A DNA stretch of 64,000 bases from Patescibacteria group bacterium (GTDB lineage: Bacteria > Patescibacteriota > Minisyncoccia > Minisyncoccales > Staskawiczbacteraceae), in assembly GCA_038065715.1 (NCBI GenBank), contig JBBTQL010000004.1:35693-99692 (forward strand), written 5' to 3'. The notes below the pieces were generated by a model. The model was not told where the DNA came from. It worked only from the letters and a program-made list of their open reading frames with translations, and searched no databases. How positions within the stretch are numbered: the first letter of the stretch is position 1; each line of letters starts with the position of its first letter. Below are positions 7,914 through 62,201 of the stretch, one piece after another. Both the position numbers and the translations under genes were made by a program.

Positions 7914-8748
7914 TTTTATTAAAAATATTATTTTTTATTTCTTTTAAGTCGGCTCCCGTTTTCATTAAAAGCCCGGCAGTTTCAAAAATTTCCTGCGTTG
8001 TTTTTGAATTTCCAAAATTTTCTGTGTAAATTGCCAGTCCTGCCAAAAAGCAGTTGGCAGCCTGTTTTTTTACCCCGTTAGAAAGCCCATCTTTTGAGGG
8101 TTCCTTATTGGATGGGTCGTATGGCCCCGGTTGCTCAAGCTTTCTATCGGGGTTTACAAGATTTAACGCCATCTCTGACAAAGAATAATCTCTTATTATG
8201 TTTATTCTACCAAAGTTTTGGTTTTTTGTCCCGACTTCGTCGAGGATGCTCGATGGCGAAGCCATCGGCACACTTTCACTATCTATATTTAAAATAAGAG
8301 AATCCAGTAAAAACCCATAAGAGTTAAGCTTGCCAGCCAATTCAGTTTTAAAATCTTTTATTCCTAAAGTTATTGTAAGGTCTGGTTTTGTTTCTGAAAA
8401 ATAAAATAAGAGGTTTTCTTTTTTTATATTTCCCCTGTCAATCATTAAATGAATTTTTAATCCTTCTTCATTTTTTTCGTAGTAAACCTGCGAGATTTCA
8501 GCTGTTTTTTGAGGAATTGAAATCACAAAGTTTTTTGGATATGAAATATGGCCTAAGCTAGGCAATAAAAATCGAAATTTTTCTGGAAATTCTTCTATTA
8601 TTAAGTTTACATTTTTATTTAATTCTTTTAAAGTATAAAAAAGAGCCAAAGCAACTGGAATGCTTTCGCCATTTGGGTTATCATTTGGAATAATGCAGAT
8701 ATTTTTTGCTTCAGAAATTAATTGCTTTGCTTCTTGCGGTATTTCCAT
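7906..8748 (-). CDS. DHH/NrnA-like phosphoesterase homolog with degenerate catalytic motif
   Basis: 280 aa; N-terminus ICIIPNDNPNGESIPVALALFYTLKE parallels NrnA HRNPDGDAIGSxLAL but His/Asp replaced; overlaps upstream ATPase gene by 8 nt; contains GC-rich hairpin insert at 8229-8268. Confidence 0.45.
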   Translation of the reverse strand: MEIPQEAKQLISEAKNICIIPNDNPNGESIPVALALFYTLKELNKNVNLIIEEFPEKFRFLLPSLGHISYPKNFVISIPQKTAEISQVYYEKNEEGLKIHLMIDRGNIKKENLLFYFSETKPDLTITLGIKDFKTELAGKLNSYGFLLDSLILNIDSESVPMASPSSILDEVGTKNQNFGRINIIRDYSLSEMALNLVNPDRKLEQPGPYDPSNKEPSKDGLSNGVKKQAANCFLAGLAIYTENFGNSKTTQEIFETAGLLMKTGADLKEIKNNIFNKNE

Positions 8749-8796
8749 AAAATTTAAGATTTAATATACCCTATTCGATTTTAAAAAATAAGTCAA

Positions 8797-9312
8797 TTGT
8801 GGATTATGAGAAATAAAATTATAACAAAAAGTTTTAAAGAAACTCAAAAAATTGGCGAGAAATTGGCAGATGAAATTTTGAAATTACTGCCGCAAAAAAG
8901 CGCAATAATTTTAGGTTTGAACGGAAACCTTGGGGGAGGCAAAACAACCTTCTTGCAAGGTTTTGCAAAAGGGCTGGGAATTAAAGAAAAAATATTAAGC
9001 CCCACCTTTGTAATTTACAAAAAGTTTATTATTTCACCAATACTTATAAATAAGCGTACGCAGAATTTGGAGTATCGCCAATTTTATCACTTTGATTGCT
9101 ATCGCATAAAAAATTACAAAGACTTTTTGGCGATAGGATTTTCCGCCCAAGGCGGACCAGCCTCGGGCTGGAAAGAAATAATTTCAAACCCAAAAAATAT
9201 TGTGGCAATTGAATGGCCAGAAAAAATTAAAAAGATTTTTCCAAAAACTGCCGTAAAGATAAATTTTAAATTTATCAACGAAAGCGCAAGAGAGTTGACA
9301 ATTAATAAATAA
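8797..9312 (+). CDS. tsaE: tRNA threonylcarbamoyladenosine biosynthesis protein TsaE
   Basis: P-loop LGLNGNLGGGKTTFLQGFAKGLGI typical of TsaE/YjeE; ~170 aa. Confidence 0.75.
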   Translation: MWIMRNKIITKSFKETQKIGEKLADEILKLLPQKSAIILGLNGNLGGGKTTFLQGFAKGLGIKEKILSPTFVIYKKFIISPILINKRTQNLEYRQFYHFDCYRIKNYKDFLAIGFSAQGGPASGWKEIISNPKNIVAIEWPEKIKKIFPKTAVKINFKFINESARELTINK

Positions 9313-11619: not shown

Positions 11620-12513
11620 ATGCCAGAGCTTCCAGAAGTAGAAACAACGGTGCGCGGTTTAAATTCAAAGGTCCTAAAAAGGGCCTTTGTTGATGTGTGG
11701 TCAGATTGGGAAAGAATAATTAAAAAACCAGACAATTTTGAAGTTTTTAAAAAAAATATAAAAGGTAAAAAAATAGAAAAAATATGGCGCCGCGCTAAAA
11801 ATATTATTTTTGATTTATCTGAAGAAAGTTCTCTTTTAATCCACCAAAAAATGACAGGCCATCTTTTGCATGGAACATGGAACATAAAACATGAAACATG
11901 GACGCCGGCTGAAAAAGGTCCATTGAATGACCCGATGAATCGTTTTATTCATTTAATATTTTTTTTAGACAATGGAAAAATGCTCGCTTTGTCTGATGCA
12001 AGAAAATTTGCCAAAGTTGAATTATGGAAAACAGAAGAATTATTAAAAGAATTTGATAATTTAGGGCCAGAACCGCTGGACAAAAATTTTACTTTTGAAA
12101 AGTTTAAAGAAAGATTGTTGCGGCAAAACCCGCCTTCGCCAAGGCTTCGGCGGGGCAAAGTAAAACAGGTTTTAATGAATCCAGAAATAATTGCAGGCAT
12201 TGGAAATATTTATTCTTCAGAGGCATTGTGGCATGCAAAAATACATCCAGAAAAAGAAATCCAAAAATTAAATGGCAAAGAACTAAAAAATATTTATAAT
12301 TCTATTAAAAAAGTTTTAGAGTTGGGGGTGAAATTGGGAGGAGAAAGTTTCTCAGACTACAGAAAACCAGACGGCAGCAAAGGAAATTTTGACACAGAAA
12401 GAAGGGCTTATAAAAGGGAGGGGCAAAAATGCCATAGATGCGGGACAAAAATAAAAAGAATAAAATTTGGCGGCAGAAGCGCATTTTTTTGCCCCCACTG
12501 CCAAAAACTATGA
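11620..12513 (+). CDS. mutM: formamidopyrimidine-DNA glycosylase (Fpg/MutM)
   Basis: MPELPEVETTVRGL N-terminus; C-terminal zinc finger CHRCGTKIKRIKFGGRSAFFCPHCQ; carries GC-rich in-frame insert at 12130-12155. Confidence 0.9.
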   Translation: MPELPEVETTVRGLNSKVLKRAFVDVWSDWERIIKKPDNFEVFKKNIKGKKIEKIWRRAKNIIFDLSEESSLLIHQKMTGHLLHGTWNIKHETWTPAEKGPLNDPMNRFIHLIFFLDNGKMLALSDARKFAKVELWKTEELLKEFDNLGPEPLDKNFTFEKFKERLLRQNPPSPRLRRGKVKQVLMNPEIIAGIGNIYSSEALWHAKIHPEKEIQKLNGKELKNIYNSIKKVLELGVKLGGESFSDYRKPDGSKGNFDTERRAYKREGQKCHRCGTKIKRIKFGGRSAFFCPHCQKL

Positions 12514-12526: not shown

Positions 12527-13331
12527 TAGAGACCCGATCTCGCACAACTCACACAAAAAAATACTATGCCATATAGAAAAGAACAATTTGTGAACGGAGA
12601 TATTTATCACATTACCAATAGAGCAATTGATGATAACTTAATTTTTAAAGATAAAAACGATTATTATCGCGGTATTTTTTCTATTTATGAATTTAATAAT
12701 GAAAAACCTGTGAATATATCTAATAGAAGACGAGATCGGATTGTCGAAAAAGAAAGAGAAAAACCGTGTGAGACCGGGTCTCATGCGAAGCTTTCTTCGG
12801 ATGAAAGGGAAAAGTTGGTGGATATTTTTGCATTTTGTTTTATGCCAAATCATATTCATCTTTTGGTAAAACAGCTGGAAGATAATGGAATAACTAATTT
12901 TATGAAAAAAGTCGGCATAGGATATGGAGGTTATTTTAATAGAAAATATCAGCGCAAAGGTTATGTTTTCCAAAACAGATTTAAATCAGTTCACATAGAG
13001 AATGACAATCAATTTATGGTGGTTGTGCCGTACATATTTACAAATCCCACCGCATTAATAGAGCCAGGGTGGAAAGGACAGGGGATCAAAAATCACTCCA
13101 CCAAAGAGGTGCTTAAATTTTTAGAAGAATACAAGTGGTCAAGTTATCAAGATTGTATTGGAATTAAGAATTTTGATTCTGTCACACAAAGAGATTTTTT
13201 ATTAGAAATGATGGCAGGCAAACAAGGTTGTAAAGACGCAGTTGAAAATTGGATAAAAAATAAAGTCGAAATTGGACAGCACGCAAATATTTTATTAGAT
13301 TAAAAACCGTGTGAGATCGGGTCTCACACAG
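12527..13331 (+). mobile_element. RAYT/IS200-like HuH transposase unit flanked by REP-like hairpins
   Basis: GAGACCCGATCTC.. at 12529-12554 is inverted copy of ..GTGTGAGATCGGGTCTCACAC at 13306-13330; third near-identical copy inside the ORF at 12761-12788. Confidence 0.5.
12566..13303 (+). CDS. Y1 HuH tyrosine transposase (IS200/IS605 TnpA-like / REP-associated tyrosine transposase)
   Basis: 245 aa; HuH motif FMPNHIHLLV; C-terminal GGYFNRKYQRKGYVFQNRF resembles catalytic-Tyr/GxLWQxRF region of Y1 transposases. Confidence 0.7.
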   Translation: MPYRKEQFVNGDIYHITNRAIDDNLIFKDKNDYYRGIFSIYEFNNEKPVNISNRRRDRIVEKEREKPCETGSHAKLSSDEREKLVDIFAFCFMPNHIHLLVKQLEDNGITNFMKKVGIGYGGYFNRKYQRKGYVFQNRFKSVHIENDNQFMVVVPYIFTNPTALIEPGWKGQGIKNHSTKEVLKFLEEYKWSSYQDCIGIKNFDSVTQRDFLLEMMAGKQGCKDAVENWIKNKVEIGQHANILLD

Positions 13332-21181: not shown

Positions 21182-21787
21182 ATGATAGCATTTTTATCGG
21201 GTAAAATTTTATTAAAAAAGGACAAGTTTATCATTCTTGAAGCAGCTGGCGTTGGCTACAAAGTTTTTTTAAATCAGCAAACCCTATCCCGACTCGATCG
21301 AGGATCCTCGACGACTTCGTCGTCGGGATTAAAATTATCAGAAATAGGGCAGGATGTAAAGCTATTTTGCTTCCAAAATATAAAAGAAGATGCTTCGGAT
21401 TTATATGGGTTTTTAAGTTATGACGAGCTTGATTTTTTTGAGGTGCTAAACGATATTCATGGCGTAGGGCCAAAAGCTGCTTTGGAAATTTCTGTGTTAG
21501 GCCCCTTAGAAAAAATTAAGGACAGAATTTTAGCGCAGGACGAAAAAATATTTGAAGGAATTCCCGGAATTGGTTCAAAAAGGGCGTCGTCAATTATTTT
21601 AGAATTGACCGGAAAAATAATGGCGAAGTCCGCCTTTGCTAAAGCTTCGCCAGACGAAGCAGAAACCGCTTTAACCCAGCTTGGTTTTTCAAAACAGCAA
21701 GCAAAGGATGCCCTGGCTCGCGTGCCTGTTGCTGTTAAAAATTCTGAAGACAGAATAAAATTAGCGCTTAAAAATTTAGGAAAATAA
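21182..21787 (+). CDS. ruvA: Holliday junction branch migration protein RuvA
   Basis: MIAFLSGKILLKKDKFIILEAAGVGYKVF N-terminus, HhH GVGPKAALEI, C-terminal domain III; true start ATG 21182 (ORF-track start 21098 lies in GC-rich non-coding element); in-frame GC hairpin insert 21286-21329. Confidence 0.85.
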   Translation: MIAFLSGKILLKKDKFIILEAAGVGYKVFLNQQTLSRLDRGSSTTSSSGLKLSEIGQDVKLFCFQNIKEDASDLYGFLSYDELDFFEVLNDIHGVGPKAALEISVLGPLEKIKDRILAQDEKIFEGIPGIGSKRASSIILELTGKIMAKSAFAKASPDEAETALTQLGFSKQQAKDALARVPVAVKNSEDRIKLALKNLGK

Positions 21788-22788: not shown

Positions 22789-24039
22789 ATGAGGATAAAA
22801 GAAGCAGTTAAAAAAATATTAGGCAGAAATTTGTTGGGTTTTTATCATTATGGCATGGCTTTTTTGGGAGCTGTGATTTTTGGTTTTCCATCTAAAAATT
22901 TAACTGTTATAGGGGTTACAGGCACCAGCGGTAAATCAACTACTTCTGATTTTATCACAAGAATTTTAGAAGAACCCTTCGACGGGGCCCAGGGCAGGTC
23001 TGGCAATAAGGTGGCTTCAATTTCAACAATAAGATTTAAAATTGCAGAAAAAGAATGGGAAAATAAATATAAAATGACAATGCCCGGCCGTTTTGTTATT
23101 CAAAAGTTTTTAAGGCAGGCAAAAAAAGCAGGATGCAAATTTGTGGTTTTAGAAGTTACTTCGCAAGGCATTGAACAATATCGCCATAAATTTATAAATT
23201 TTGATACAGCTGTTTTTACTAATTTGTCGCCAGAGCATATTGAAAGCCATGGCAGTTTTGAAAATTACAGAAACGCAAAACTAAAACTATTTCGAGCAAC
23301 AAAAAACATCCATATTATAAATACTGATGACGCAAATTCAAAATATTTTTGGAATATTCCGGCAAAACAAAAAATTGGATTTTCAGCCAAAGATGCGCAA
23401 AACGCTAATTTAAAATTAAATTTAATTGGAGACTTTAATATTTTAAACGCCTTAGCGGCAATTTCTGCGGCAAAGGCATATGGCATTGATTTTAGCATTT
23501 GTAAAAGGGCGCTGGAAAAGGCCAAAGGAATTTCTGGCAGAATGGAAGTGATTCAAAAAGAGCCATTCAAAGTTATTGTTGACTATGCTCATACTCCAGA
23601 ACAACTCGAAAGTGTCTATAAGGCACTTTCTCAAAACCCAAAACCTCAAACTCCAAACCCCAAACTTATTTGTGTGCTTGGAAGTTGCGGCGGGGGAAGG
23701 GATAAATGGAAAAGGACTGTTTTAGGAGAAATTGCAAATAAATATTGCGACAAAATATTTATAACCAATGAAGATCCATATGATGAAAACCCCAACCAGA
23801 TTTTATCTGAAATAAAATCTGGAATTATCAATTCTCAATTTCCAATTTCCAATTTATATGAAATTTTAGACCGTAAAGAGGCAATTAAAACTGCAATAAA
23901 ATTAGCAAAATCAGATGATATTGTTATAATCACTGGCAAGGGTTCAGAATCCTGGATGTGCATAGCAAACGGTAAAAAAATCCCCTGGGACGACAGGCAA
24001 ATCGCTAAAGATGCGTTGGGGCTCCAAACCTTGACATAG
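22789..24039 (+). CDS. Mur ligase family protein (MurE/MurF-like UDP-N-acetylmuramoyl peptide ligase)
   Basis: P-loop GVTGTSGKSTT; Mur ligase middle and C-terminal domains; in-frame inserts at 22977-22994 (GC hairpin) and 23828-23855 (heptamer repeat). Confidence 0.75.
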   Translation: MRIKEAVKKILGRNLLGFYHYGMAFLGAVIFGFPSKNLTVIGVTGTSGKSTTSDFITRILEEPFDGAQGRSGNKVASISTIRFKIAEKEWENKYKMTMPGRFVIQKFLRQAKKAGCKFVVLEVTSQGIEQYRHKFINFDTAVFTNLSPEHIESHGSFENYRNAKLKLFRATKNIHIINTDDANSKYFWNIPAKQKIGFSAKDAQNANLKLNLIGDFNILNALAAISAAKAYGIDFSICKRALEKAKGISGRMEVIQKEPFKVIVDYAHTPEQLESVYKALSQNPKPQTPNPKLICVLGSCGGGRDKWKRTVLGEIANKYCDKIFITNEDPYDENPNQILSEIKSGIINSQFPISNLYEILDRKEAIKTAIKLAKSDDIVIITGKGSESWMCIANGKKIPWDDRQIAKDALGLQTLT

Positions 24040-24218
24040 ATGCTTTAATATGATATGATTAATAATATAGCTCTTTTTTATTGTTACTTGCGAAATTGGC
24101 AGTTATAGCCAAAAGCTACTGAATTATATCGGTATCTTCTGGCTATGACTGCTATGTCGGTACGTCAAGCAGAAACCAGCCTGTCATAATTGGCGGGCAA
24201 AACAGAAAGGAGATTGTC

Positions 24219-24878: not shown

Positions 24879-25207
24879 GTCCTTTGGGCTTGAGCCTTTG
24901 CTCTAGCCCTTGGATCCTCTGCCCTTTGCATTTCCTCACGGACTTGCACTGGGCAGATTTTTTTTGCTAAAATATAAATGGTAATAGGTGAATCTTGCGG
25001 GAGATCAAGGTTTCCCGCGGCCGAATCCAGTATTCGTATGCTGAGAGCGTTTGCGATTAAGGTTGCAAACGGAGGGCATACGAATTACTTTCAAAAAAGA
25101 AGATACTTGGCGTGGGAAACTAGGGCATTACGATGCCGAATTCGATACAGCCCTGTGATCGTAAAACTACTTCAAGGGGCAGTGGCATAGATGGTTTCTT
25201 GCGTATT

Positions 25208-25333: not shown

Positions 25334-25339
25334 CTCTCT

Positions 25340-25699: not shown

Positions 25700-25739
25700 C
25701 AGTCTGGGGGGGGGGATTAAAAGCTGAGTTATTTTGATT

Positions 25740-26726: not shown

Positions 26727-26752
26727 TCTATTTTGTGTTAGAATTAAAAATC

Positions 26753-27031
26753 ATGAAAAATTCAAAATCTGTTAAGAAATTTATTAGGACGCAAAAGGCG
26801 CAGATTAGGCGCCAGTTTTTTGATGTGAAAAAACAAGAAGCTGAAATAGCAGAGTTATATAAAAAAGTGGCAGGAACTGTGGTGGCGAAATCCTTCGACG
26901 CGGCTCAGGACGATGCTTCTACATTGAAAGCAGAAGTTAAAAAACCTGCCCGCAATGCTTCGCATAGCGATGCAGGCGGGGAGAAATCGAGAAAAGAAAT
27001 AAAGAAACAAAAGCTAAAAGTTAAATCTTAA
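26753..27031 (+). CDS. small basic protein, hypothetical
   Basis: K/R-rich; contains in-frame CCTTCGACGCGGCTCAGG hairpin element at 26891-26912. Confidence 0.35.
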   Translation: MKNSKSVKKFIRTQKAQIRRQFFDVKKQEAEIAELYKKVAGTVVAKSFDAAQDDASTLKAEVKKPARNASHSDAGGEKSRKEIKKQKLKVKS

Positions 27032-28024: not shown

Positions 28025-28199
28025 TGAGGGGGTGAGAGATTTATTCTCAAGGACAGAATAGTTCTTAATGAAGGAGGTTTATGCATATGCCTAGCTTCAC
28101 ATTGTCCGAATCTAGTTTAAACAACAGGCCAAGAGCGTTGAGAATTATATACCCCCTCATCAAAAAAACCATCCTTCGATAAACTCAGGATGGTTTTTT
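28025..28199 (+). ncRNA. candidate small RNA / sORF-bearing transcript (33-aa ORF 28081-28182)
   Basis: Promoter and terminator ~175 nt apart; 5' GAGGGGGT pairs with 3' ACCCCCTC; internal strong SD AAGGAGGT then ATG; stop lies inside terminator stem. Confidence 0.35.
28169..28199 (+). terminator. rho-independent terminator (CCTTCGATAA-loop hairpin family)
   Basis: CCATCCT-TCGATAAACTC-AGGATGG then TTTTTT; near-identical hairpin at 36926-36955. Confidence 0.6.
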
Positions 28200-28282: not shown

Positions 28283-28561
28283 ATGCCAAAAGAAGAAAAA
28301 GCCCTGCCTGCCGTCAGGCAGGCAATTGGCAAAATTACTCACTATTTTTCTAATATAGGCGTGGCGGTTATTGATATTTCTGGTGTTTTAAAAGAAGGCG
28401 ATAGCATTAGAATTACAGGCGGAGAGAATACAGACTTTGAGCAAGAAGTTGATTCTATGCAGGTTGACCACAAGGAAGTAAAAACTGCCAAAAAAGGAGA
28501 TTCTGTGGGATTAAAAGTAAAAGAAAAAGTCAGAGAGGGATATAGCGTTTATAAAATTTAA
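28283..28561 (+). CDS. small beta-rich protein, hypothetical
   Basis: 92 aa ORF with A/T-rich upstream; no confident family assignment. Confidence 0.45.
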   Translation: MPKEEKALPAVRQAIGKITHYFSNIGVAVIDISGVLKEGDSIRITGGENTDFEQEVDSMQVDHKEVKTAKKGDSVGLKVKEKVREGYSVYKI

Positions 28562-28653: not shown

Positions 28654-29085
28654 ATGGCAGAAAATATACAAGAAAAGATAGAAAATAAAATTATTGATTT
28701 AATAGCATTGGGAGCAGGAGGAAGGCTTATAGTTTTTAAGCCCCAAAATTCCTTCGGGCGTAGCTCGCAGCCGTTAGCTTACGAGCGAGGCCCAACGGGC
28801 GAGCCAACGGGCGAGGCGGATAAAGATTTGGTTGTAGAAAAAAAGGGCGATTATAAAAAAAAGCCGATTTTTTTAAAAATTTACGATAAAAAACTTTTTG
28901 ATAAAGTTTTAGCAGATAAGGATAAGGATAAAAACTTTTATTTAATTTTTGCGCGTTTTGACATCGTAAAGCAAGATATTGAAGACGAAATTTTTATTGT
29001 TTCATCCGTTGATTCAAAAAAGATTATAATGAGTAAAAAAGATTTTGTCAGATTTCTATTAGAAAAATTTGAAAAAAGAGAATAA
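28654..29085 (+). CDS. hypothetical protein with in-frame GC-rich tandem insert
   Basis: 143 aa; 28751-28815 GC-rich segment with CCAACGGGCGAG x2 tandem encoding PTGEPTGE. Confidence 0.45.
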   Translation: MAENIQEKIENKIIDLIALGAGGRLIVFKPQNSFGRSSQPLAYERGPTGEPTGEADKDLVVEKKGDYKKKPIFLKIYDKKLFDKVLADKDKDKNFYLIFARFDIVKQDIEDEIFIVSSVDSKKIIMSKKDFVRFLLEKFEKRE

Positions 29086-29087
29086 TT

Positions 29088-30386
29088 ATGAAGTTTGCAG
29101 CTGATTTTCATATACACTCAAAATATTCAAGAGCCACTTCCCCTTCAATGGACTTGGAAAATTTAGATAAATGGGCAAAAATTAAAGGCATTAAGGTTTT
29201 AGGAACAGGAGATTTTACTCATCCTGGTTGGCTTAAGAATTTAAAAGAAAAATTGAGCCCCGCTGAGCGGGGTCTTTTTTGCGCCCAAGGCGCATCCGCC
29301 TTGGGCGCAAAGCTTAATGATAATTTTGCTACTAGGTTTTTACTTACAGCTGAGATTAGCTGTATATATTCTAAGGCTGGTAAAGTTAGAAAAATCCATA
29401 TTATAATTTTTGCCCCCTCATTTGAGGCAGTAGAAAAAATTAATTTAAAACTGGGCCAAATTGGAAATTTAAAAGCAGATGGCAGGCCTATTTTAGGCCT
29501 TGATGCAAAAGAATTGGCTAAAATTATTTTTGACGCAGATGAAAATTGCATGGTTGCGCCGGCTCATATGTGGACGCCATGGTTTTCTGTTTTCGGTTCA
29601 AAATCAGGCTTTAATTCAATGGAAGAGTGTTTTGAAGAATATTCAAAATATATTTACGCTGGCGAAACTGGTTTGTCTTCTGACCCGGCAATGAACTGGC
29701 GGCTTTCACAATTAGATAAAATTACCTTGATTTCTAATAGCGACGCCCATTCCCCCAGTAAAATCGGTAGAGAAGCGAATTTTTTTGATACAGAAATGAG
29801 TTATATTGGGATAATAGACATAATAAAAAACCCCATTAGAAAGCCTTCGGCTTCTAACGGGGCAAGGTTTTTGTATACAATAGAATTTTTTCCAGAAGAA
29901 GGAAAGTATCATTATGACGGCCATAGGTCGTGCGACATAAGATTATCTCCGCAAGAATCAAAAAGATATAACAATATTTGCCCAAAATGCCAAAAACCTC
30001 TTGTTATTGGAGTTTTAAACAGAGTTGAGGAGCTGGCTGATAGGCCTGAAGGATTCCAGCCAGAAAATGCTGTACCTTTTAAAAGCTTAATTCCATTAGA
30101 AGAAATAATCGCTGAATCTATCGGCGTTACGACTGCGTCAAAACAAGTCGCTAAATTTTATAATAATTTAATAAAAAATATAGGCAGCGAGTTTAAAATT
30201 TTGTTAGAAGCAGATAAAGAAGAAATTAAAAAAATAAGTTTGCCTGCCATTGCAGAAGGTATTATAAAAGTTAGGGAAGGGAAAATTTATATTGAGCCGG
30301 GTTACGATGGAGTCTATGGAAAAATAAAAATTTTTGCAAAACCAGAGGAAAAAAAATTTTTATTTTCACAAAAAACATTATTTTAA
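29088..30386 (+). CDS. PHP (polymerase and histidinol phosphatase) domain protein
   Basis: DFHIHSKYSRATS N-terminal His motif of PHP family; 432 aa; terminator-like hairpin pair inserted in frame at 29257-29308. Confidence 0.75.
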   Translation: MKFAADFHIHSKYSRATSPSMDLENLDKWAKIKGIKVLGTGDFTHPGWLKNLKEKLSPAERGLFCAQGASALGAKLNDNFATRFLLTAEISCIYSKAGKVRKIHIIIFAPSFEAVEKINLKLGQIGNLKADGRPILGLDAKELAKIIFDADENCMVAPAHMWTPWFSVFGSKSGFNSMEECFEEYSKYIYAGETGLSSDPAMNWRLSQLDKITLISNSDAHSPSKIGREANFFDTEMSYIGIIDIIKNPIRKPSASNGARFLYTIEFFPEEGKYHYDGHRSCDIRLSPQESKRYNNICPKCQKPLVIGVLNRVEELADRPEGFQPENAVPFKSLIPLEEIIAESIGVTTASKQVAKFYNNLIKNIGSEFKILLEADKEEIKKISLPAIAEGIIKVREGKIYIEPGYDGVYGKIKIFAKPEEKKFLFSQKTLF

Positions 30387-32697: not shown

Positions 32698-34527
32698 ATG
32701 AAGAACAAGGAAATTGCTAAAATATTTTATGAAATAGCGAAATTTTTAGAAATAGAAAGAGTGGCTTTTAAGCCCTATGCTTATGAAAGGGCTGGTAATT
32801 CCTTAGAAGCATTGAAAGAAGATGTGGGCGATATTTATAGAAAAGGCGGGGCAAAGGCTTTGCAGGAAATTTCAGGAGTCGGCAAAAATATTGCAGGGCA
32901 TATTGAAGAGTATTTAAAAAATGGAAAGGTAAAAATCTACGAACAGCTTAAAAAGAAATTGCCCCTTAAAATAGATGAGTTGATTAAAGTAGAAGGTTTG
33001 GGCCCAAGAAAAATAAAAATTCTTTATCAAAAATTAGGCGTTAAAAATTTGAAAGATTTGGAAAAGATGGCTAAGGCGCATAAAATAGCCCCGCTTTTCG
33101 GTTTTGGAGAAAAAACAGAAAATAATATTTTAGAAGGCATTGAATTTTTAAAAAGAAGCAAAGGCCGGTCTCGTTTGGGAGACATAATGCCAATAGTAGA
33201 AGAAATTTTTGAAAATTTAAAAAATTTAAAAGAGGTTGAAAAAATCAGTTTAGCTGGCTCTTTAAGAAGAAGAAAAGAAACTATTGGAGATGTTGATATT
33301 TTAGTGGTTTCCCGCCCAGCAGGGCGAGGCTCGCCTGGTGAGGCGGCTAATAAAGTAATGGATTTTTTTGTTTCTCAAGAGGGCGTAGAAAAAGTATGGG
33401 GCAAAGGAGGAACAAAAGCATCGGTTCATATGAAATATGGATTTGATATGGATTTAAGAATTGTTCCCGAAAAAAGTTATGGCTCTGCTTTGCAATACTT
33501 TACCGGGTCAAAAGACCACAATATTGTTACAAGAAAAATTGCCATAGAAAAAGGCCTAAAATTAAGCGAGTACGGAGTTTTTAAAGGAAAAAAACAGATT
33601 GCCGGTAAAACAGAAGAAGATGTTTATAAAGCAATTGGTTTGCCATTTATAGAACCAGAATTAAGAGAAAACGAAGGCGAAATTGAGGCGGCTCTTCGAC
33701 AAGCTCAGGGTAAACTTCCGGGATTGCCAAAAATAGTTGAGTTAAAAGATATAAGGGGGGACTTACATTGCCATTCAAAACCCGATGGAGTCGCCCATTT
33801 GAATGTCGGAGAAAAATCGATTGAAGAAATGGCTAAAGTGGCAATGGCTATGGGTTACGAATATATTGGAATTTCTGATCATACAAAATTTTTAAAAATT
33901 GATGATGGTTTAGACGAGAAACAATTATTAAAACAAAATGAAGCAATAAAAAAAATAAATACCCGCCTCCGCCAACCTGCGCTTCGCCAAAGGCTTCGGC
34001 AAGGCGAGGGCTTCGGCGGGCAAGAAAAATTTCGCATACTTCACGGATGCGAGGCAAATATTCTACCGGACGGTTCAATAGATATTAAAGACGAAGTTTT
34101 GGCTCAATTAGATTATGTTATAGCTGGCGTTCACAATGCTTTAAAACAAGAAAAACTAAAAATGACAGAAAGGTTAATAAGAGCAATGAAAAATCCGAAT
34201 GTTGATATTATTTCGCATCCAACGGGCAGATTAATAGGCAGCAGAGACGAATATCAAATTGATTTTGATAAAATTTTAGAAATAGCAAAAGAAACCGGAA
34301 CAATTTTGGAAATTAATTCGTCTCCTTACAGATTAGATTTAAAAGACTTATATGTCAGAAGAGCAAAAAATGAAGGCGTGAAAATGATTATAAATACCGA
34401 CAGCCACCAAAAAGAGCAATTAAATCTTATGGAATATGGAGTTTCGCAAGCCAGAAGAGGTTGGGCGGAGAGAGAGGATATTATAAACACAAATTCATTA
34501 GACGGATTATTAAAATATTTTAAATGA
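32698..34527 (+). CDS. polX: DNA polymerase X family protein with C-terminal PHP domain
   Basis: HhH GVGKNIAGHIEEYL; Pol beta nucleotidyltransferase GSLRRRKETIGDVDILV; PHP DLHCHSKPDG; in-frame GC insert 33964-34023. Confidence 0.85.
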   Translation: MKNKEIAKIFYEIAKFLEIERVAFKPYAYERAGNSLEALKEDVGDIYRKGGAKALQEISGVGKNIAGHIEEYLKNGKVKIYEQLKKKLPLKIDELIKVEGLGPRKIKILYQKLGVKNLKDLEKMAKAHKIAPLFGFGEKTENNILEGIEFLKRSKGRSRLGDIMPIVEEIFENLKNLKEVEKISLAGSLRRRKETIGDVDILVVSRPAGRGSPGEAANKVMDFFVSQEGVEKVWGKGGTKASVHMKYGFDMDLRIVPEKSYGSALQYFTGSKDHNIVTRKIAIEKGLKLSEYGVFKGKKQIAGKTEEDVYKAIGLPFIEPELRENEGEIEAALRQAQGKLPGLPKIVELKDIRGDLHCHSKPDGVAHLNVGEKSIEEMAKVAMAMGYEYIGISDHTKFLKIDDGLDEKQLLKQNEAIKKINTRLRQPALRQRLRQGEGFGGQEKFRILHGCEANILPDGSIDIKDEVLAQLDYVIAGVHNALKQEKLKMTERLIRAMKNPNVDIISHPTGRLIGSRDEYQIDFDKILEIAKETGTILEINSSPYRLDLKDLYVRRAKNEGVKMIINTDSHQKEQLNLMEYGVSQARRGWAEREDIINTNSLDGLLKYFK

Positions 34528-36424: not shown

Positions 36425-36916
36425 ATGCCAAAAGAAAAGTCAGCTGGAGTTATAATTTTTAGACGGGAACCCTTCGACCCGGCTCAGGGTAAAAAATCTG
36501 ATATTTTTTACCTGCTTTTGCATTATGCTCCGTCTGAGCCGGGAAAACATGGACACTGGGGGTTTGCAAAAGGGCATATTGAAAAAGGCGAAACAGACGA
36601 AGAAACAGCTAAAAGAGAAGTCGCTGAAGAAACTGGCATTAAAGACCTAAAAATAATTTCTGGATTTAAAGAATTAGAAAAATATTTTTTTAGGCAGGTT
36701 TACGGGCTAAAGGGCGAAGCAAGAAAAAAAGCGCCGTGGGTTTTCAAATCAGTTGTATTTTTTTTAGCTGAAACAAAAATTAAAGATGTTAAAATTTCAG
36801 AAGAACACGCTGGTTTTTTGTGGCTGGCTTACGGAGATGCTGTTAGAAAAATAAGTTTTAAAAACTCAAAAGAGCTATTAAAAAAAGCAAATGAATTTTT
36901 AGAAGAAAACAAGTAA
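36425..36916 (+). CDS. NUDIX hydrolase
   Basis: Nudix box GHWGFAKGHIEKGETDEETAKREVAEETGI; in-frame CCTTCGACCCGGCTCAGG insert 36471-36490. Confidence 0.85.
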   Translation: MPKEKSAGVIIFRREPFDPAQGKKSDIFYLLLHYAPSEPGKHGHWGFAKGHIEKGETDEETAKREVAEETGIKDLKIISGFKELEKYFFRQVYGLKGEARKKAPWVFKSVVFFLAETKIKDVKISEEHAGFLWLAYGDAVRKISFKNSKELLKKANEFLEENK

Positions 36917-36925: not shown

Positions 36926-36955
36926 CCGTCCTTCGATAATCTTGGGACGGTTTTT
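36926..36955 (+). terminator. rho-independent terminator (same hairpin family as 28169-28199)
   Basis: CCGTCC-TTCGATAATCTTG-GGACGG then TTTTTCGTTTTT. Confidence 0.6.
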
Positions 36956-39830: not shown

Positions 39831-41482
39831 TAAAAGAAGAAATAAAAAAAATAGTGGAAAACTCAATTAAAAACCTGCAAAAACAGGGCGCATTTTTAAA
39901 ATTAAAAATGCCAGAAATTTTAATTGAGCGGCCTAAAGAAAAAATACGCGGTGACTATTCAACCAACATTGCCTTTGTAATTGGAAAAGATGTTTTGAAA
40001 AATCCATTTGAAACGGCATTGCTTTTGAAAACAGAAATTGTCTCGCTTTGCGAGATCTCGCGCAGCGAGAAAAAACAAAAATCTGTAATAGAAAAAGTTG
40101 AGGTAGTGGGAGGGTTTATTAATTTTTTTGTTGCTGACGATTATTTTAAAAATCAGCTGCAAATTATTTTAAAACAAAAAAACAAATTTGGAGATTTAAA
40201 ACTTGGTAAAAGTCAAAAAGTAAACATAGAATTTATTTCTGCAAATCCAACAGGGCCGTTAACTTTAGGAAACGGCAGAGGAGGATTTTGTGGCGATGTT
40301 TTGGCTAATGTTTTAGAAAAAGCAGGATATAAAGTTGAAAGAGAATATTATATTAACAATACCGGAGCTCAAATTAAAAAACTTGGGCATTCTGTAATTG
40401 GAGATGCAGAAGCTGTTTACAAAGGAAAATATATTATTGATTTAAGAAACAAAGTTAAGGGAGATGACCCCGAGAAAGTTGGAGAAAAATCGGCAAAAAT
40501 TATTTTAGAAAAAATGATAAAGCCGTCTGTAAAAAAAATGGGAATTAAATTTGACACATGGTTTTCAGAAAAAACTCTCTATAAAAATAAAGAAGTAGAT
40601 AAAACAATACAAGAATTGGCTAAAAAAGGGTTCACCTATGAAAGCGAAGACGCTGTGTGGTTTAAATCTAAAGAATTGGGCGATGACAAAGACAGGGTTT
40701 TGGTGAGAGCCGACGGAATTAAAACATATTTTGCTTCAGATATTGCTTATTTTAAAAATAAATTTAAAAGAGGGTTTGGTAAACTTATTATGTTTTTGGG
40801 AGCCGACCACTATGGATATGTTCCGAGGCTAAAAGCTGCCTCGCTTGCTTTTGGTTTTAAAAAAGACAGTATTGATGCTATTGTTATGCAGTTGGTGCGG
40901 CTTTATGAAAAAGGCAAAGAAGTAAGAATGGCAAAAAGGACTGGTATTTATGTAACAATAGATGAGTTAATTGGCGAGGTTAGTTTGGATGTTGCCAGAT
41001 TTTTCTTTTTAATGATAAGCCCTAATACCCACATGAATTTTAATTTGGATTTAGCAAAAGAAAAATCAGAGAAAAATCCGGTTTTTAAAGTGCAATATGC
41101 GCATGCCCGAATTTGCTCAATTTTCCGAAAATTTGGAAATTTCAAATTTTCCCGATTTCATCGAGGATCCTCAATGGCAAAGCCATCGGGACAAATTTCA
41201 AATTTAAAATTATTAAATGAGCCGAGCGAGTTAGGGTTAATTAGAGAATTAATTAAACTTCCAGAAATTATTGAAGAGATAGCTAAAGATTATCAAGTTC
41301 AAAGACTACCGCAATACGCAATGGATTTAACTGATGCATTCCATAGATTTTATGAAAACTGTAAAGTCCTGAGCGAAGTCGAAGGATTGCGTGATGCCCG
41401 CTTGTCTCTTGTTATGGCAACAAAAATTGTTTTAAAAAATACATTAGACTTAATGGGAATATCTGCTCCTGAAAAAATGTGA
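39827..41482 (+). CDS. argS: arginine--tRNA ligase
   Basis: SANPTGPLTLGNGRGG class I motif; C-terminal DALK-type anticodon-binding domain; in-frame AAATTT-type repeat plus GC hairpin insert 41108-41190. Confidence 0.9.
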   Translation: MIKEEIKKIVENSIKNLQKQGAFLKLKMPEILIERPKEKIRGDYSTNIAFVIGKDVLKNPFETALLLKTEIVSLCEISRSEKKQKSVIEKVEVVGGFINFFVADDYFKNQLQIILKQKNKFGDLKLGKSQKVNIEFISANPTGPLTLGNGRGGFCGDVLANVLEKAGYKVEREYYINNTGAQIKKLGHSVIGDAEAVYKGKYIIDLRNKVKGDDPEKVGEKSAKIILEKMIKPSVKKMGIKFDTWFSEKTLYKNKEVDKTIQELAKKGFTYESEDAVWFKSKELGDDKDRVLVRADGIKTYFASDIAYFKNKFKRGFGKLIMFLGADHYGYVPRLKAASLAFGFKKDSIDAIVMQLVRLYEKGKEVRMAKRTGIYVTIDELIGEVSLDVARFFFLMISPNTHMNFNLDLAKEKSEKNPVFKVQYAHARICSIFRKFGNFKFSRFHRGSSMAKPSGQISNLKLLNEPSELGLIRELIKLPEIIEEIAKDYQVQRLPQYAMDLTDAFHRFYENCKVLSEVEGLRDARLSLVMATKIVLKNTLDLMGISAPEKM

Positions 41483-62014: not shown

Positions 62015-62201
62015 ATATGCTATGATTAATAATACAGCTCTTTTTAAGTGAAAATACTTGCAAAAACAGCGGTTATAGCCAAAAGCGACCGAAGGTCGTC
62101 CTGAGCAGAGCCGAAGGACAACAAATCGGTATTTTCTGGCTATGACTGCTATGGTAGTAGTCAAGCGAAATGGTGAAACCCTAAAGAAAGGAAAAAGCAC
62201 C

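What the first reader, a model, noticed from the sequence alone, without database searches (positions are those of the whole stretch)
21286..21329. Families of GC-rich hairpin miniature repeats inserted IN FRAME into conserved housekeeping genes, also used as intergenic terminators
Across the window, 20-60-nt GC-rich palindromic segments interrupt AT-rich conserved genes without breaking the reading frame; many have UUCG-type loops and CCTTCG/CGAAGG cores. The in-frame sites are RuvA 21286-21329, the DHH-like gene 8229-8268, ArgRS 41151-41190, LeuRS 61453-61494, Fpg 12130-12155, PolX 33964-34023, Mur ligase 22977-22994, the hypothetical protein at 26891-26912, Nudix 36471-36490, IleRS 45584-45650, PHP 29257-29308, M16 53955-53982, TatD ~58348-58400 and the hypothetical at 28751-28815. 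Members group by sequence. Family B is CCCGAYTTCRTCGAGGATSCTCRATGGCRAAGCCATCGG (8229, 41151; RuvA and LeuRS variants). Family A is CCTTCGACNCGGCYCAGG (22977, 26891, 36471), encoding PFDxAQG. Family C is CTTCGCCAA(A)GGCTTCGGCGGG (12130, 33964). The same stems recur as bona fide terminators at 28169-28199 and 36926-36955 and in the DGR-2 leader (62098-62125), and as an inverted copy of the same hairpin at 41497-41530 that has no T-run and is not called a terminator here. The PHP insert (29257-29280) is a textbook terminator, GCCCCGC-TGA-GCGGGG-TCTTTTTT, sitting inside a CDS. This points to a mobile hairpin element that proliferates into coding DNA and is tolerated only in frame, with possible effects on mRNA structure, translation pausing or premature termination.
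Basis: seen in the sequence. Interest (0 to 1): 0.8.

Follow-up and report, generated by a model that had tools for sequence, protein, structure and literature searches.

The report
Tiny palindromic repeats living inside genes
This ultra-small groundwater bacterium (Patescibacteria/CPR) carries several families of 15-42-base GC-rich palindromic DNA repeats spliced precisely and in frame into housekeeping genes, a smaller version of the "selfish DNA inside genes" known from Rickettsia, and one 42-base family is spread almost unchanged over more than a hundred related metagenome contigs.

Summary
GC-rich perfect hairpins are about ten times more frequent than in shuffles (22 vs ~2). Codon alignments with two syntenic relatives show that all seven insertions found only in the window's lineage are GC-rich, mostly hairpin-forming segments of 15-66 nt, always in multiples of three, with clean empty sites in the relatives.

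Family B is a defined 42-nt element, TCCCGAC-TTT-GTCGAGGATCCTCGAT-GGC-TTT-GCC-ATCGGGA. It occurs on at least 119 metagenome contigs against ~2 expected. Its stems covary strongly by Watson-Crick exchanges, 100 of 109 copies are exactly 42 nt, its consensus has no stop in any of six frames, and it sits inside ORFs in all six frames as well as between genes.

Fifteen-nt modules (TCCGCC-nnn-GGCGGA, usually as dimers at TTT|AAA sites) are always read S-A-x-G-G. AlphaFold puts the ArgRS insert in the only disordered loop.

A conserved, syntenic Y1 (RAYT-like) transposase gene flanked by inverted hairpins lies in the window. Its link to the repeats is unproven.

Best reading: REP/RPE-like non-autonomous DNA palindromes translated as loop insertions. 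This is a new variant of a known kind, and I found no description of it for CPR.

The parts
21287..21328 (+). Family-B 42-nt palindromic element in RuvA (14 codons, SRLDRGSSTTSSSG)
   Evidence: Exact 14-aa gap against P. aeruginosa RuvA. Absent in most close orthologs and present at the same site in a patchy subset. Matches the family-B pattern.
41150..41191 (+). Family-B element in ArgRS (SRFHRGSSMAKPSG), inserted in an (AAATTTC)n heptamer array
   Evidence: Absent in 59 of 60 orthologs. Empty sites in L001/L002 show a precise insertion with no target duplication. Residues 442-456 are the only pLDDT<50 segment of the AF2 model.
8229..8270 (+). Family-B element inside the hypothetical gene 7906-8748(-), antisense to that gene
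   Evidence: (D8/D10). L080 and L126, which carry an 82%-identical ortholog of the neighbouring T2SSE gene, also hold a family-B copy.
61452..61494 (-). Degenerate inverted family-B copy in LeuRS
   Evidence: Inverted-repeat pairs I4 and I7, 74-80% complementary to the copies at 8229 and 21287. The region is variable, and insertion status against T. thermophilus LeuRS is unclear.
9142..9171 (+). Dimer of 15-nt hairpin modules (TCCGCCCAAGGCGGA + CCAGCCTCGGGCTGG) in TsaE, peptide SAQGGPASGW, at a TTT|AAA site
   Evidence: Exact 10-aa gap against H. influenzae TsaE. Same dimer type in L001, L016, L041 and L154.
29280..29309 (+). Dimer of 15-nt modules (CAQGASALGA) in gene 29088-30386
   Evidence: Absent in L001 and L002, whose empty site reads CTTTTT|AAG.
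58697..58726 (+). Dimer of 15-nt modules (SALGRPASGG) in TatD
   Evidence: About 7 extra residues against T. maritima TatD. Near-identical dimer in L105.
53954..53983 (+). Dimer of 15-nt modules (SPFGGSAVGG) in the M16 peptidase
   Evidence: Hairpins. No net length change against 3hdi, so insertion is not shown.
44151..44165 (+). Single 15-nt GC hairpin (AREGG) in IleRS
   Evidence: Absent in L001 and L002.
45585..45608 (+). 24-nt GC-rich insert (PSADSGQV) in IleRS
   Evidence: Absent in L001 and L002.
36470..36493 (+). Family-A element (CCCTTCGACCCGGCTCAGGG, PFDPAQGK) in the Nudix hydrolase
   Evidence: Absent in L001 and L002. The core recurs in 22 places across the loci.
22975..22995 (+). 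Family-A element (PFDGAQG) in MurE
   Evidence: A 5-aa gap and a further 3-aa gap (8 extra residues in all) around this segment against T. maritima MurE.
26891..26912 (+). Family-A element (SFDAAQD) in hypothetical ORF 26735-27031
   Evidence: Sequence match. No comparator available.
28753..28818 (+). 66-nt GC-rich composite insert with a 12-nt tandem (FGRSSQPLAYERGPTGEPTGEA)
   Evidence: Absent in L002 and mostly absent in L001. TRF row 28792-28815.
33316..33342 (+). GC hairpin insert in PolX. L001 carries a different element (GCCCTGCCTGCCGGCAGG) in the same loop
33962..34026 (+). Nested family-C composite in PolX: an older element shared with L001 plus a 33-nt secondary insert (33976-34008)
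12128..12156 (+). Family-C hairpin (CCCGCC-TTCGCCAAGGCTTC-GGCGGG) in Fpg
   Evidence: About 3 extra residues against L. lactis Fpg.
28303..28324 (+). CCTGCCTGCC-GT-CAGGCAGG palindrome (LPAVRQA). The same element occurs in L001 (twice), L004, L009, L017, L024, L086 and L155
4317..4336 (-). Related CCTGCC...GGCAGG palindrome in the ComEA-like gene. A second copy lies at 4503-4526
   Evidence: No comparator available.
62094..62120 (+). 27-nt family-A hairpin inserted in a non-coding DGR leader
   Evidence: Precise gap against the paralogous leader at 24025-24225.
28169..28199 (+). Intergenic family-A core (CCATCCTTCGATAAACTCAGGATGG) followed by a T-run, a putative terminator
   Evidence: Not listed by the terminator scan because its loop exceeds 8 nt.
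36926..36955 (+). Intergenic family-A core followed by a T-run, 10 nt after the Nudix stop codon, a putative terminator
12566..13303 (+). Y1 HUH tyrosine transposase-like gene (RAYT-like), candidate mobiliser
   Evidence: PF01797 at 35 bits (cutoff 23). NCBIfam REP_Tyr_transpos E=9e-11 but 41.9 bits, below the cutoff of 80. HUH motif PNHIHLL and Tyr motif PYIFTNP. Profile's best PDB hit is 4ER8 TnpA-REP, E=0.057. Syntenic ortholog in L041.
12529..12541 (+). Upstream flanking hairpin GAGA-CCCGA-TCTC of the Y1 gene
13309..13329 (+). Downstream flanking hairpin GTGTGAGA-TCGGG-TCTCACAC, inverted relative to the upstream one
   Evidence: The same arrangement, with covarying stems and the same loop, is seen in L040 and L041.
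61023..61055 (+). In-frame heptamer tandem array (AAATTTC)4.7 in LeuRS, the kind of array that hosts family B in ArgRS
   Evidence: Similar arrays at 11869-11902, 20317-20350, 23634-23665 and 23836-23855.

Best explanation
The segments are several related families of very small, non-coding, non-autonomous DNA palindromes, REP/REPIN/RPE-like. They have spread through the genomes of this Patescibacteria (Parcubacteria, near Ca. Staskawiczbacteria) lineage.

Structure. The units are modular. One type is a 15-nt hairpin, YCNGCC-nnn-GGCNGR, mostly as 30-nt dimers joined at GGA|TCC. A second is a 42-nt two-hairpin element built on TCGA/GGATCC dyads (family B). A third has a CCTTCGA...CTCAGG core (family A). 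The modules nest into one another.

Insertion. They enter DNA precisely, with no target duplication at the sites where an empty allele is known, and they favour AT-rich sites: TTT|AAR for the dimers and heptamer tandem arrays for family B.

Fate. The genome is about 89% coding, so most landing sites are ORFs. Unit lengths are multiples of three and the family-B consensus has no stop in any frame. Copies that fall in tolerant surface loops therefore persist and are translated as short Ser/Ala/Gly/Pro/Arg-rich loop insertions. Copies between genes persist as well, and family-A copies followed by T-runs probably act as terminators.

Status of each step. Shown: insertion, family membership, wide distribution, DNA-type covariation and loop location. 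Inferred: mobility, translation of the inserts, and the mobiliser. The most plausible mobiliser is a single-strand-DNA HUH enzyme such as the conserved RAYT-like Y1 protein encoded at 12566-13303; I put this sub-hypothesis at about 0.3.
For: - Hairpin excess of 22 against ~2.
- All 7 insertions found only in the window's lineage (absent in both relatives) have GC of at least 0.50. Only 8-19% of CDS windows of 18-42 nt reach that value.
- Clean empty sites exist in the relatives.
- The relatives carry their own copies at other sites: L001 13867-13896, 18784-18807 and 5259-5276.
- Different elements have entered the same loops independently, in PolX and RuvA.
- Nested insertions occur, and there are family-B scaffolds whose hairpins are 15-nt modules (L139).
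- Family B was found on at least 119 contigs with a 21-base pattern for which I calculate ~2 chance matches.
- 100 of 109 family-B copies are exactly 42 nt. 58 lie in long ORFs, in all six frames, and the rest are at gene ends or between genes.
- The family-B consensus is stop-free in six frames, which holds for only 3.9% of shuffles.
- Covariation: 82 cells changed on both sides against 21.9 in shuffles (0 of 500 shuffles reach it), with few G-U pairs.
- All 17 coding TCCGCC modules are read in one phase.
- Dimers sit at TTT|AAA-type sites, and at 29280 that site existed before the insertion.
- A 27-nt insertion separates two paralogous non-coding leaders.
- The ArgRS insert is the only low-confidence loop in the model.
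- The Y1 gene is conserved at 60-82% identity in relatives, syntenic in L041, and flanked by inverted hairpins with covarying stems and a constant CCCGA/TCGGG loop in three genomes.
Against: - No transposition intermediate, recent identical copy or strain-level polymorphism was seen. The window's own family-B copies are only 71-80% alike, so the element may be inactive in this genome.
- The Y1 gene's flanking hairpins are low copy and are not the dispersed families.
- No Y1 gene lies in 804 kb of family-B loci.
- Its match to RAYT is below the NCBIfam cutoff and marginal against PDB.
- Neutral insertion followed by frame filtering does not by itself explain the strict phase-locking of the 15-nt modules.
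- The M16 and LeuRS copies show no net length gain.
- Translation of the inserts is inferred only from intact frames.
Confidence: 0.7

Rival explanations
1. The repeats are host-beneficial DNA signals rather than selfish elements. Examples would be DNA-uptake or recombination signals like the USS/DUS of Pasteurellaceae and Neisseria, or binding sites for a dimeric protein at the GGATCC/TCGA dyads. On this view they spread among lineages by biased uptake and homologous recombination and sit in ORFs because there is little intergenic space.
For: Family B is far better conserved across diverse contigs (33-47% GC; host proteins 37-82% identical) than the host genes are. The same RuvA site is occupied in a patchy set of lineages, as allele sharing by recombination would give. 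Inverted-repeat form, preferred reading frames and presence in genome-maintenance genes (RuvA, Fpg, PolX, TatD, with heptamer arrays in UvrB and MurE) resemble what is reported for USS/DUS (my own knowledge of that literature). Competence-type genes are present: a ComEA-like HHH_3 protein and a T2SSE ATPase in the window, and DprA in L041.
Against: Density is low, at 4 family-B copies per 64 kb, and there are several unrelated families rather than one dominant motif. The copies are length insertions, not substitutions. The window's copies are decaying (71-80% identity), which is not expected for a signal under selection. No receptor is linked to them.
Confidence: 0.1
2. The hairpins are selected RNA structures within mRNAs, acting as stability elements, internal or attenuating terminators, or translation-pausing sites. 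They would recur because the same stable GC stem-loops are favoured.
For: Strong stems form in an AT-rich transcriptome. Family-A cores followed by T-runs sit just downstream of genes. A hairpin plus T-run inside gene 29088-30386 is conserved in orthologs, with a changed loop and stem in L014. Family B is oriented 46 antisense to 12 sense in ORFs.
Against: Covariation is almost purely Watson-Crick, and G-U pairs are no more common than other mismatches. The elements occur in both orientations, in all frames and in non-coding DNA. Closest relatives lack them at the same sites without compensation. The conserved primary sequence in the unpaired and dyad parts (TCGAGGATCCTCGA) is not explained by stem stability. 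No Rfam match was found.
Confidence: 0.1
3. The palindromes arise de novo at each site by replication template switching or quasi-palindrome correction, or by error-prone end-filling at breaks (for example by the PolX enzyme). They would not be copies of a pre-existing element.
For: No target duplications are seen. Some palindromes are perfect and look self-extended, such as the 15-bp stem at 29278-29311. A synonymous compensatory change keeps a hairpin within conserved ArgRS codons in L010/L016. M16 'QPAGW' is a palindrome of native length.
Against: Arms are GC-rich while the flanks are AT-rich, so they are not copies of local sequence. The same 15-, 30- and 42-nt sequences recur at unrelated loci and in many genomes.
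Confidence: 0.05
4. The inserts are not translated. They would be bypassed by the ribosome (as with the byp elements of Magnusiomyces mitochondria or T4 gene 60) or excised from the RNA.
For: They are compact GC hairpins in AT-rich coding sequence, as byp elements are (my own knowledge). No expression data are available here.
Against: Every in-gene copy examined keeps the frame and lacks in-frame stops. Bypassed or spliced inserts would not need to. No gene in the window is split or frameshifted at a hairpin. No take-off/landing codon pairs were noticed at the sites aligned codon by codon, but this was not examined systematically.
Confidence: 0.03

Closest known systems
Rickettsia palindromic elements (RPE; Ogata et al. 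2000, cited from my own knowledge; summarised in PMC3733652)
   Same: Palindromic repeats inserted in frame into conserved protein genes of a small, AT-rich genome. They are tolerated in surface-exposed positions, also occur between genes, and no element-encoded protein is known.
   Different: RPE-1 is roughly 100-150 bp and restricted to Rickettsia. Here the units are 15-42 nt, GC-rich, modular and nested. One family is near-identical across many Patescibacteria lineages, and one module type is locked to a single codon phase.
Intragenic GTAG- and CGTC-tagged REPs (Di Nocera et al. 2013, PMC3733652)
   Same: Palindromes of 20-40 nt, often as dimers, that lie inside known genes in some species (O. 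terrae, R. conorii RPE-4/6), many of them replication or repair genes. CGTC REPs have no dedicated transposase.
   Different: I saw no terminal GTAG or CGTC tag and no CCA tail, but I did not search for them. Stems are 4-7 bp with 3-nt loops, against 8-9 bp with 4-5 nt loops. That survey covered 8 phyla and does not mention CPR.
REPIN-RAYT systems (Bertels & Rainey 2011, PMC3116915; Bertels et al. 2017, PMC5581495)
   Same: A vertically inherited Y1 HUH transposase-like gene, seen once in each fetched locus, is flanked by inverted hairpins. The dispersed repeats form doublets. Persistence in a lineage is long-term.
   Different: REPINs are extragenic and the RAYT's flanking REPs are the dispersed family. 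Here the flanking hairpins are low copy and differ from the dispersed families. The protein scores below the NCBIfam RAYT cutoff.
Cyanobacterial small dispersed repeats SDR4-6 and heptamer STRR arrays (Elhai et al. 2008 Genome Res 18:1484; the paper is not held in the library and is cited from memory, with the reference listed in PMC3116915)
   Same: Very small (21-27 nt) hairpin-forming mobile repeats, with nested insertions and an association with tandem heptanucleotide repeats.
   Different: A different phylum and different sequences. As far as I recall, in-frame residence in housekeeping genes is not the main feature there.
GC clusters, double-hairpin elements and byp elements of fungal mitochondrial genomes (review PMC8811140; DHE and byp cited from my own knowledge)
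   Same: Short GC-rich palindromes spreading in a very AT-rich genome, sometimes inside coding sequence, with a double-hairpin architecture.
   Different: Those are organellar. byp elements are skipped by the ribosome and need not be in frame, whereas here every copy keeps the frame.

Membership tests
REP / REPIN-RAYT (REPtron) | Y1 HUH tyrosine transposase with an HUH motif and a catalytic Tyr (Y-I-x-x-N-P helix) | tested here: met
   PF01797 at 35 bits, above the gathering score of 23. PNHIHLL and PYIFTNP motifs. The profile aligns HUH through YI..NP to 4ER8 TnpA-REP, though only at E=0.057.
REP / REPIN-RAYT (REPtron) | Protein scores as a RAYT equivalog | tested here: not met
   NCBIfam NF047646 gives 41.9 bits against a cutoff of 80. 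phmmer finds no PDB hit at E<=0.1.
REP / REPIN-RAYT (REPtron) | Single-copy, vertically inherited gene | tested here: inconclusive
   One copy in 64 kb. Homolog identities (60-82%) track those of ArgRS. Synteny Fpg-Y1-holA holds in L041 but the context differs in L040. No whole genome was available.
REP / REPIN-RAYT (REPtron) | Gene flanked by inverted copies of the dispersed REP family | tested here: not met
   Inverted hairpins do flank the gene in 3 genomes. They occur only at the gene in the window and are low copy elsewhere. They share only the CCCGA/TCGGG pentamers with the family-B termini.
REP / REPIN-RAYT (REPtron) | Repeats are extragenic | tested here: not met
   More than half of the family-B copies and most 15-nt modules lie inside long ORFs.
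GTAG/CGTC-tagged REP superfamilies | Unpaired GTAG or CGTC tag at one end, an 8-9 bp stem with a 4-5 nt loop (CGTC type), and a CCA tail | not tested
   The definition was read in PMC3733652. In the copies listed I did not notice such a tag or tail, and the stems are 4-7 bp with 3-nt loops. I made no systematic search for tags.
Rickettsia palindromic elements | Palindromic repeat inserted in frame in conserved genes at positions compatible with the fold | tested here: met
Rickettsia palindromic elements | Sequence homology to the RPE families | not tested
   No RPE sequences were available for comparison. The size class differs (15-42 nt against roughly 100-150 nt for RPE-1, from memory).
IS200/IS605-type single-strand transposition | Precise insertion without target duplication, next to a short specific target | tested here: inconclusive
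   No duplication at the ArgRS and 29280 sites. 82 of 107 family-B copies have no immediate direct repeat. Flanks are biased (..G|C.. for family B, TTT|AAA for the dimers), but no single target motif emerges.
IS200/IS605-type single-strand transposition | Orientation bias relative to the replication fork | not testable with these tools
   Only the orientation relative to genes is known (46 antisense to 12 sense). Closed genomes are needed.
MITE | Terminal inverted repeats matching a parent IS, 50-400 bp long, with target site duplication | tested here: not met
   Length is 15-42 nt, there is no regular target duplication, and no parent IS was found.
DNA uptake sequences (USS/DUS) | One short motif at a density near 1 per kb, arising by substitution | tested here: not met
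   There are several families, each at about 1 per 6-16 kb in the window, and they arise as length insertions.
Known RNA families (Rfam 15) | Match at the gathering score | tested here: not met
   Only tmRNA is found in the window. A consensus family-B copy gives no hit better than E=1.8.

The most novel reading that the evidence does not exclude
Patescibacteria host a phylum-wide set of ultra-small palindromic replicators that have adapted to living inside genes. Their unit lengths are intrinsic multiples of three (15, 30 and 42 nt, even in non-coding copies). The 42-nt backbone is free of stop codons in all six frames. The 15-nt modules land at TTT|AAA codon junctions so that they are always read as the harmless peptide S-A-x-G-G. 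A domesticated RAYT-like Y1 enzyme may maintain them. On this reading, the insertion-rich proteins typical of CPR would owe many of their lineage-specific loops to these elements.
Probability: 0.3. Interest if true: 0.8.

Novelty: new variant of a known kind. Interest (0 to 1): 0.66.

Why it matters
In-frame colonisation of essential genes by selfish palindromes has been a curiosity of Rickettsia and a few other bacteria. Here it appears in the Candidate Phyla Radiation, with the smallest units so far (15 nt). Across the orthologs compared, all seven insertions specific to the window's lineage are of this GC-rich kind.

Consequences:
1. It gives a concrete source for the many short lineage-specific insertions in CPR proteins and a caution for alignments, phylogenies and structure prediction of these organisms.
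2. It defines a sharply conserved 42-nt element (on at least 119 contigs) that can serve as a marker and as a substrate for testing HUH/Y1 enzymes.
3. It raises a testable question: can mobile DNA evolve to be compatible with reading frames, through lengths in multiples of three, six-frame stop-free sequence and phase-locked modules?

I found no description in the searchable literature. That library is incomplete.

Tried and rejected
- Rfam, whole window at gathering thresholds and a consensus family-B copy at E<=10: nothing but tmRNA.
- Hammerhead or other small ribozymes: considered from the three-way-junction look of family B and dropped, because I saw no core motifs by eye and Rfam found nothing.
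- Archaeal-type BHB splicing: rejected. The genes are bacterial (RuvA, MurE, Fpg, tmRNA) and all inserts keep the frame.
- Target-site duplication, and the idea that heptamer arrays are footprints of repeated insertion and excision: rejected for ArgRS. Empty and filled alleles have the same number of heptamer units, and 82 of 107 copies have no immediate direct repeat.
- Physical linkage of family B to Y1 genes: no Y1 gene in 804 kb of family-B loci.
- Dispersal of the Y1 gene's own CCCGA-loop hairpins: low copy.
- Phage origin: no family-B match in the viral contigs.
- Literature: the core sequence and the peptide strings gave only a cloning primer and unrelated hits. Elhai 2008 could not be read.
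- Terminator scan: it did not list the two family-A 'terminators', whose loops exceed its 8-nt limit.
- Assembly artefact: rejected. The same proteins occur on 4-6 independent contigs, and relatives from other studies carry their own copies.
Full report
**Source and setting.** The window is 34.5% GC and about 89% coding. Its proteins match a Patescibacteria MAG from Hainich groundwater, on contigs of 139-272 kb. The closest named relatives are Candidatus Staskawiczbacteria. Two syntenic relatives were fetched: L001 (ArgRS 81% identical) and L002 (67%). Together they cover window positions ~28-53 kb.

- GC-rich perfect hairpins (stem of at least 6 bp, at least 5 G-C pairs, 3-8 nt loop) occur at 22 distinct sites. 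Dinucleotide shuffles give 1.9 +/- 1.6, and 30-nt block shuffles that preserve local GC give 1.7 +/- 1.3.
- Family B is recovered independently by the repeat finder (D8, D10, I4, I7).

**Are they insertions?** I aligned every shared ortholog of the window, L001 and L002 at codon level.
- The seven segments of 4 or more residues present only in the window, and absent from both relatives, are 29280-29309, 29844-29864, 33706-33723, 33790-33807, 36470-36493, 41150-41191 and 45585-45608.
- All seven have GC of at least 0.50. Only 8-19% of coding windows of 18-42 nt reach that value.
- Most of them form hairpins, and the flanking codons align cleanly with the empty sites.
- L001 has its own elements where the window has none. 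IleRS 13867-13896 is CCCGCCCAAGGCGGG+TCTGCCTCGGGCAGA (PAQGGSASGR). Others lie at 18784-18807 and 5259-5276.
- The same PolX loop carries different elements in the window and in L001 and none in L002. A second PolX site shows a 33-nt element nested inside an older one shared with L001.

Outside the syntenic region I compared with solved structures:
- RuvA: exact 14-aa gap.
- TsaE: exact 10-aa gap, SAQGGPASGW.
- TatD: ~7 extra residues at 58697-58726, plus a separate ~38-aa extra region.
- MurE: 8 extra residues in two gaps at the PFDGAQG segment.
- Fpg: only ~3 extra residues at the family-C hairpin.
- LeuRS and M16: no net length change.

In ArgRS, 59 of 60 orthologs lack the 14 residues SRFHRGSSMAKPSG. 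L001 and L002 show the intact site GGC AAT TTC AAA TTT|CAA ATT TC., so the 42 nt went in precisely, without duplication or loss. An AlphaFold model built on 38 orthologs has mean pLDDT 89.6. Its only segment below 50 is residues 442-456, which is the insert, lying between helices of the anticodon-binding domain.

In RuvA, which is the finding's own coordinates, most close orthologs (186-188 aa) lack the insert. A patchy subset carries a family-B insert at the same site (SRLDRGSS..SG, SRLGRGSSIPSESG). Others carry different GC-type inserts in the same loop, such as PASPAKRGEPE and PAFAPKELRQGEPE.

**Family B is a defined, widespread element.**
- I scanned the metagenome contigs with TCCCGANNNNNTCGAGGANNCTCNAN{9,13}TCGG. 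It has 21 fixed bases, for which I calculate roughly two chance matches.
- The copies give the consensus TCCCGAC-TTT-GTCGAGGATCCTCGAT-GGC-TTT-GCC-ATCGGGA.
- Of 109 unique copies, 100 are exactly 42 nt.
- At positions the pattern left free, pairs 7-11, 26-36, 27-35, 28-34 and 29-33 covary. There are 82 cells changed on both sides against 21.9 in shuffles (0 of 500 shuffles reach it), and 97.8% of cells are paired against 22-45% when the 3' partners are slid.
- Exchanges are almost all Watson-Crick. G-U pairs (10 cells) are rarer than other mismatches (25 cells). This is what a DNA palindrome readable on either strand gives, not a strand-specific RNA.
- Four TCGA/CGA motifs allow two alternative folds: two hairpins, or a three-way junction.
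- 58 copies lie well inside ORFs of at least 100 codons, in all six frames (antisense 26/8/12 and sense 7/4/1 for phases 0/1/2). The rest are at gene ends or between genes.
- The consensus has no stop in any frame, which holds for 3.9% of shuffles of the same composition.
- Loops are T-rich on one strand, so orientation is defined.
- Host contigs are 32-56% GC. The 22 that share a gene with the window show 37-82% protein identity, so the element spans a broad part of the group.
- There are no matches in viral contigs, in Rfam or in the searchable literature.
- There is no regular target duplication: 82 of 107 copies have none. However, 24 of 107 share a 7-mer across the two flanks, against 3.9 in controls, because the element often sits inside a 7-8-nt tandem array. 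In ArgRS that array predates the insertion.
- The window also has such heptamer arrays on their own, in frame, in Fpg, UvrB, MurE and LeuRS.

**The 15-nt modules.**
- The most widely shared GC-rich 12-mers among all fetched loci are CCGCC-nnn-GGCG variants and the junction GGCGGATCCGCC.
- Units of 6+3+6 nt (YCNGCC-nnn-GGCNGR) mostly occur as 30-nt dimers. Near-identical dimers sit in unrelated genes of different genomes: window TsaE, L001 IleRS, L016, L041 and L154; window TatD and L105.
- All 17 coding copies with the TCCGCC stem are read in phase 0 as S-A-x-G-G. For all GC hairpins of this shape in ORFs, the phases are 49/18/13.
- Dimers are flanked by T-runs on the 5' side and A-runs on the 3' side, with TTT|AA(A/G) in about 8 of 14. 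At 29280 the empty alleles already read CTTTTT|AAG.
- A palindromic TTT|AAA target cannot occur in one coding phase, because it would create TAA. This explains part of the phase bias. The rest is probably selection against the R-P-R-R or P-P-x-A peptides of the other phases, which is inference.
- In L139 the family-B scaffold carries 15-nt modules as its two hairpins. The dimers and family B share a central GGATCC dyad, so the families are modular relatives.

**Family A.** The core CCTTCGA(Y)-n-CTCAGG occurs in MurE, Nudix and a small ORF as (P/S)FDxAQ(G/D), and in the two putative terminators. It was found at 22 places across the fetched loci, coding and non-coding, in several frames. The two DGR leaders of the window align at ~80% and differ by a precise 27-nt family-A hairpin. 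This is a within-genome insertion event in non-coding DNA.

**A candidate enzyme.**
- Window 12566-13303 encodes a 245-aa protein with Pfam Y1_Tnp above threshold and an NCBIfam REP-associated tyrosine transposase match (E=9e-11) below that model's cutoff. It has HUH (PNHIHLL) and Y-I-x-x-N-P motifs.
- A profile of 36 homologs finds E. coli TnpA-REP (4ER8) as its best solved relative, but only at E=0.057.
- Homologs are common in Patescibacteria at 60-82% identity, much like ArgRS.
- In L041 the gene sits in the same Fpg-Y1-holA context. In L040 the context differs.
- In all three genomes it is flanked by inverted hairpins whose stems covary (GAGA/TCTC against GAGC/GCTC). The loop stays CCCGA upstream and TCGGG downstream, and a further copy lies inside the gene.
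- This arrangement is RAYT- or TIRYT-like (PMC3733652, PMC5581495). However, these hairpins are low copy. They share only the pentamers CCCGA/TCGGG with the termini of family B, and no Y1 gene lies in 804 kb of family-B loci. The link is a lead, not a result.

**Mechanism, with status of each step.**
- Shown: precise, in-frame, lineage-specific insertions; sequence families shared across loci and genomes; DNA-type covariation; location in a disordered loop; residence in both coding and non-coding DNA.
- Inferred: the elements are copied from pre-existing copies, i.e. they are mobile; they are translated; copies that break frame or fold are purged.
- Speculative, at about 0.3: mobilisation by the Y1 enzyme through single-stranded DNA. 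This would fit the lack of target duplication, the hairpin substrates, the patchy distribution compatible with precise excision, and the 46:12 orientation bias.

**Comparison with known systems.**
- The closest are the Rickettsia palindromic elements and the intragenic GTAG/CGTC REPs described by Di Nocera et al..
- Next are the REPIN-RAYT systems, and, from memory, the 21-27-nt SDR elements of Nostoc with their heptamer arrays.
- Fungal mitochondrial GC clusters, double-hairpin elements and byp elements (for the review; the rest from memory) are also comparable.
- The present case differs in several ways: phylum (CPR); unit size (down to 15 nt); modular and nested build; unit lengths in multiples of three with a six-frame-open backbone; strict phase-locking of one module; and the flanking hairpins of the Y1 gene not being the dispersed family.
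- I therefore file it as working like RPE or intragenic REPs, not as a member of any named family.

- 'PHP' (29088-30386) and 'DHH-like' (7906-8748) have no Pfam support. The L001 ortholog of the former carries PF27218.
- The hairpin plus T-run at 29257-29273 is conserved among orthologs rather than newly inserted.
- The IleRS insert is 24 nt.
- LeuRS, M16 and Fpg are weak or unclear as insertions.

**Verdict.** This is a real, statistically solid and widespread feature, and a new variant of a known kind. I found no description of it for Patescibacteria in the literature I could search. Interest 0.66.

Noticed in passing
window 24219-26726 and 62142-64000: Two diversity-generating-retroelement-like cassettes. 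They comprise reverse transcriptases (25734-26726, and a 78%-identical copy from 63676), a bAvd-like gene at 63274-63642(-), and GC-rich VR/TR-like repeat pairs at 24741-24874/25208-25341 and 62704-62820/63165-63281. Their promoter-leader regions are paralogous.
   Followed up: partly
window 11869-11902, 20317-20350, 23634-23665, 23836-23855, 61023-61055: Heptanucleotide tandem arrays lie inside the coding sequences of Fpg, UvrB, MurE and LeuRS; four are ~33 nt (4.6-4.9 units) and 23836-23855 is 20 nt (2.9 units). In Fpg, MurE (23634 array) and LeuRS they coincide with extra residues relative to solved homologs (15, 5 and 4 aa). This is the same kind of array that hosts the family-B element in ArgRS and in about a fifth of the metagenomic copies.
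   Followed up: partly
window 12770-12782; L040 10197-10209; L041 10195-10227: Each Y1 transposase-like gene contains, about 200 nt into its own coding sequence, a further copy of the hairpin that flanks it (CCCGA/TCGGG-type loop; the window's internal copy reads CCGGG). In L041 the stem is 14 bp.
   Followed up: no
L010 11254-11278 and L016 11209-11233 (ArgRS): The conserved ArgRS codons A-R-I-H-S-I-L-A form an 11-bp hairpin. The two genomes differ by a pair of synonymous, mutually compensating changes (GCA...CTT against GCG...CTC). L011 has a different 13-bp palindrome at the same place. This lies just upstream of the insertion hot spot.
   Followed up: no
L015 10479-10509 (ArgRS) and L041 4609-4652 (DprA): Long hairpins with the CCCGA/TCGGG loop typical of the Y1 gene flanks also occur inside other genes in relatives. 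The transposase's own hairpin type may therefore disperse at low copy.
   Followed up: no
window 53785-53800 and the same site in L020, L027, L030: The M16 peptidase motif D-Q-P-A-G-W is encoded by the palindrome CCAGCCGGC(C)GGCTGG in four genomes. It has the same length as the corresponding segment of B. halodurans M16, so it is a palindrome without an insertion.
   Followed up: partly
loci L004, L015, L017, L030, L064, L100, L105, L115, L128, L136, L148 and the window: The family-A core CCTTCGACAAGCTCAGG and its variants give peptides such as PELVEG, LSLSKG and PSTSSG when they fall in ORFs. From memory, the same strings are common in 'hypothetical proteins' of other bacterial phyla, so this family may reach far beyond CPR.
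   Followed up: no
window 38053-38403 (-): tmRNA gene with tag peptide ANLFNRQPALALA, next to smpB.
   Followed up: no
window ~1-9000: dnaN lies just upstream of the window start. The cumulative GC skew has its minimum near 6-8 kb and gene orientation switches at ~8.75 kb, which suggests that the replication origin region is here.
   Followed up: no
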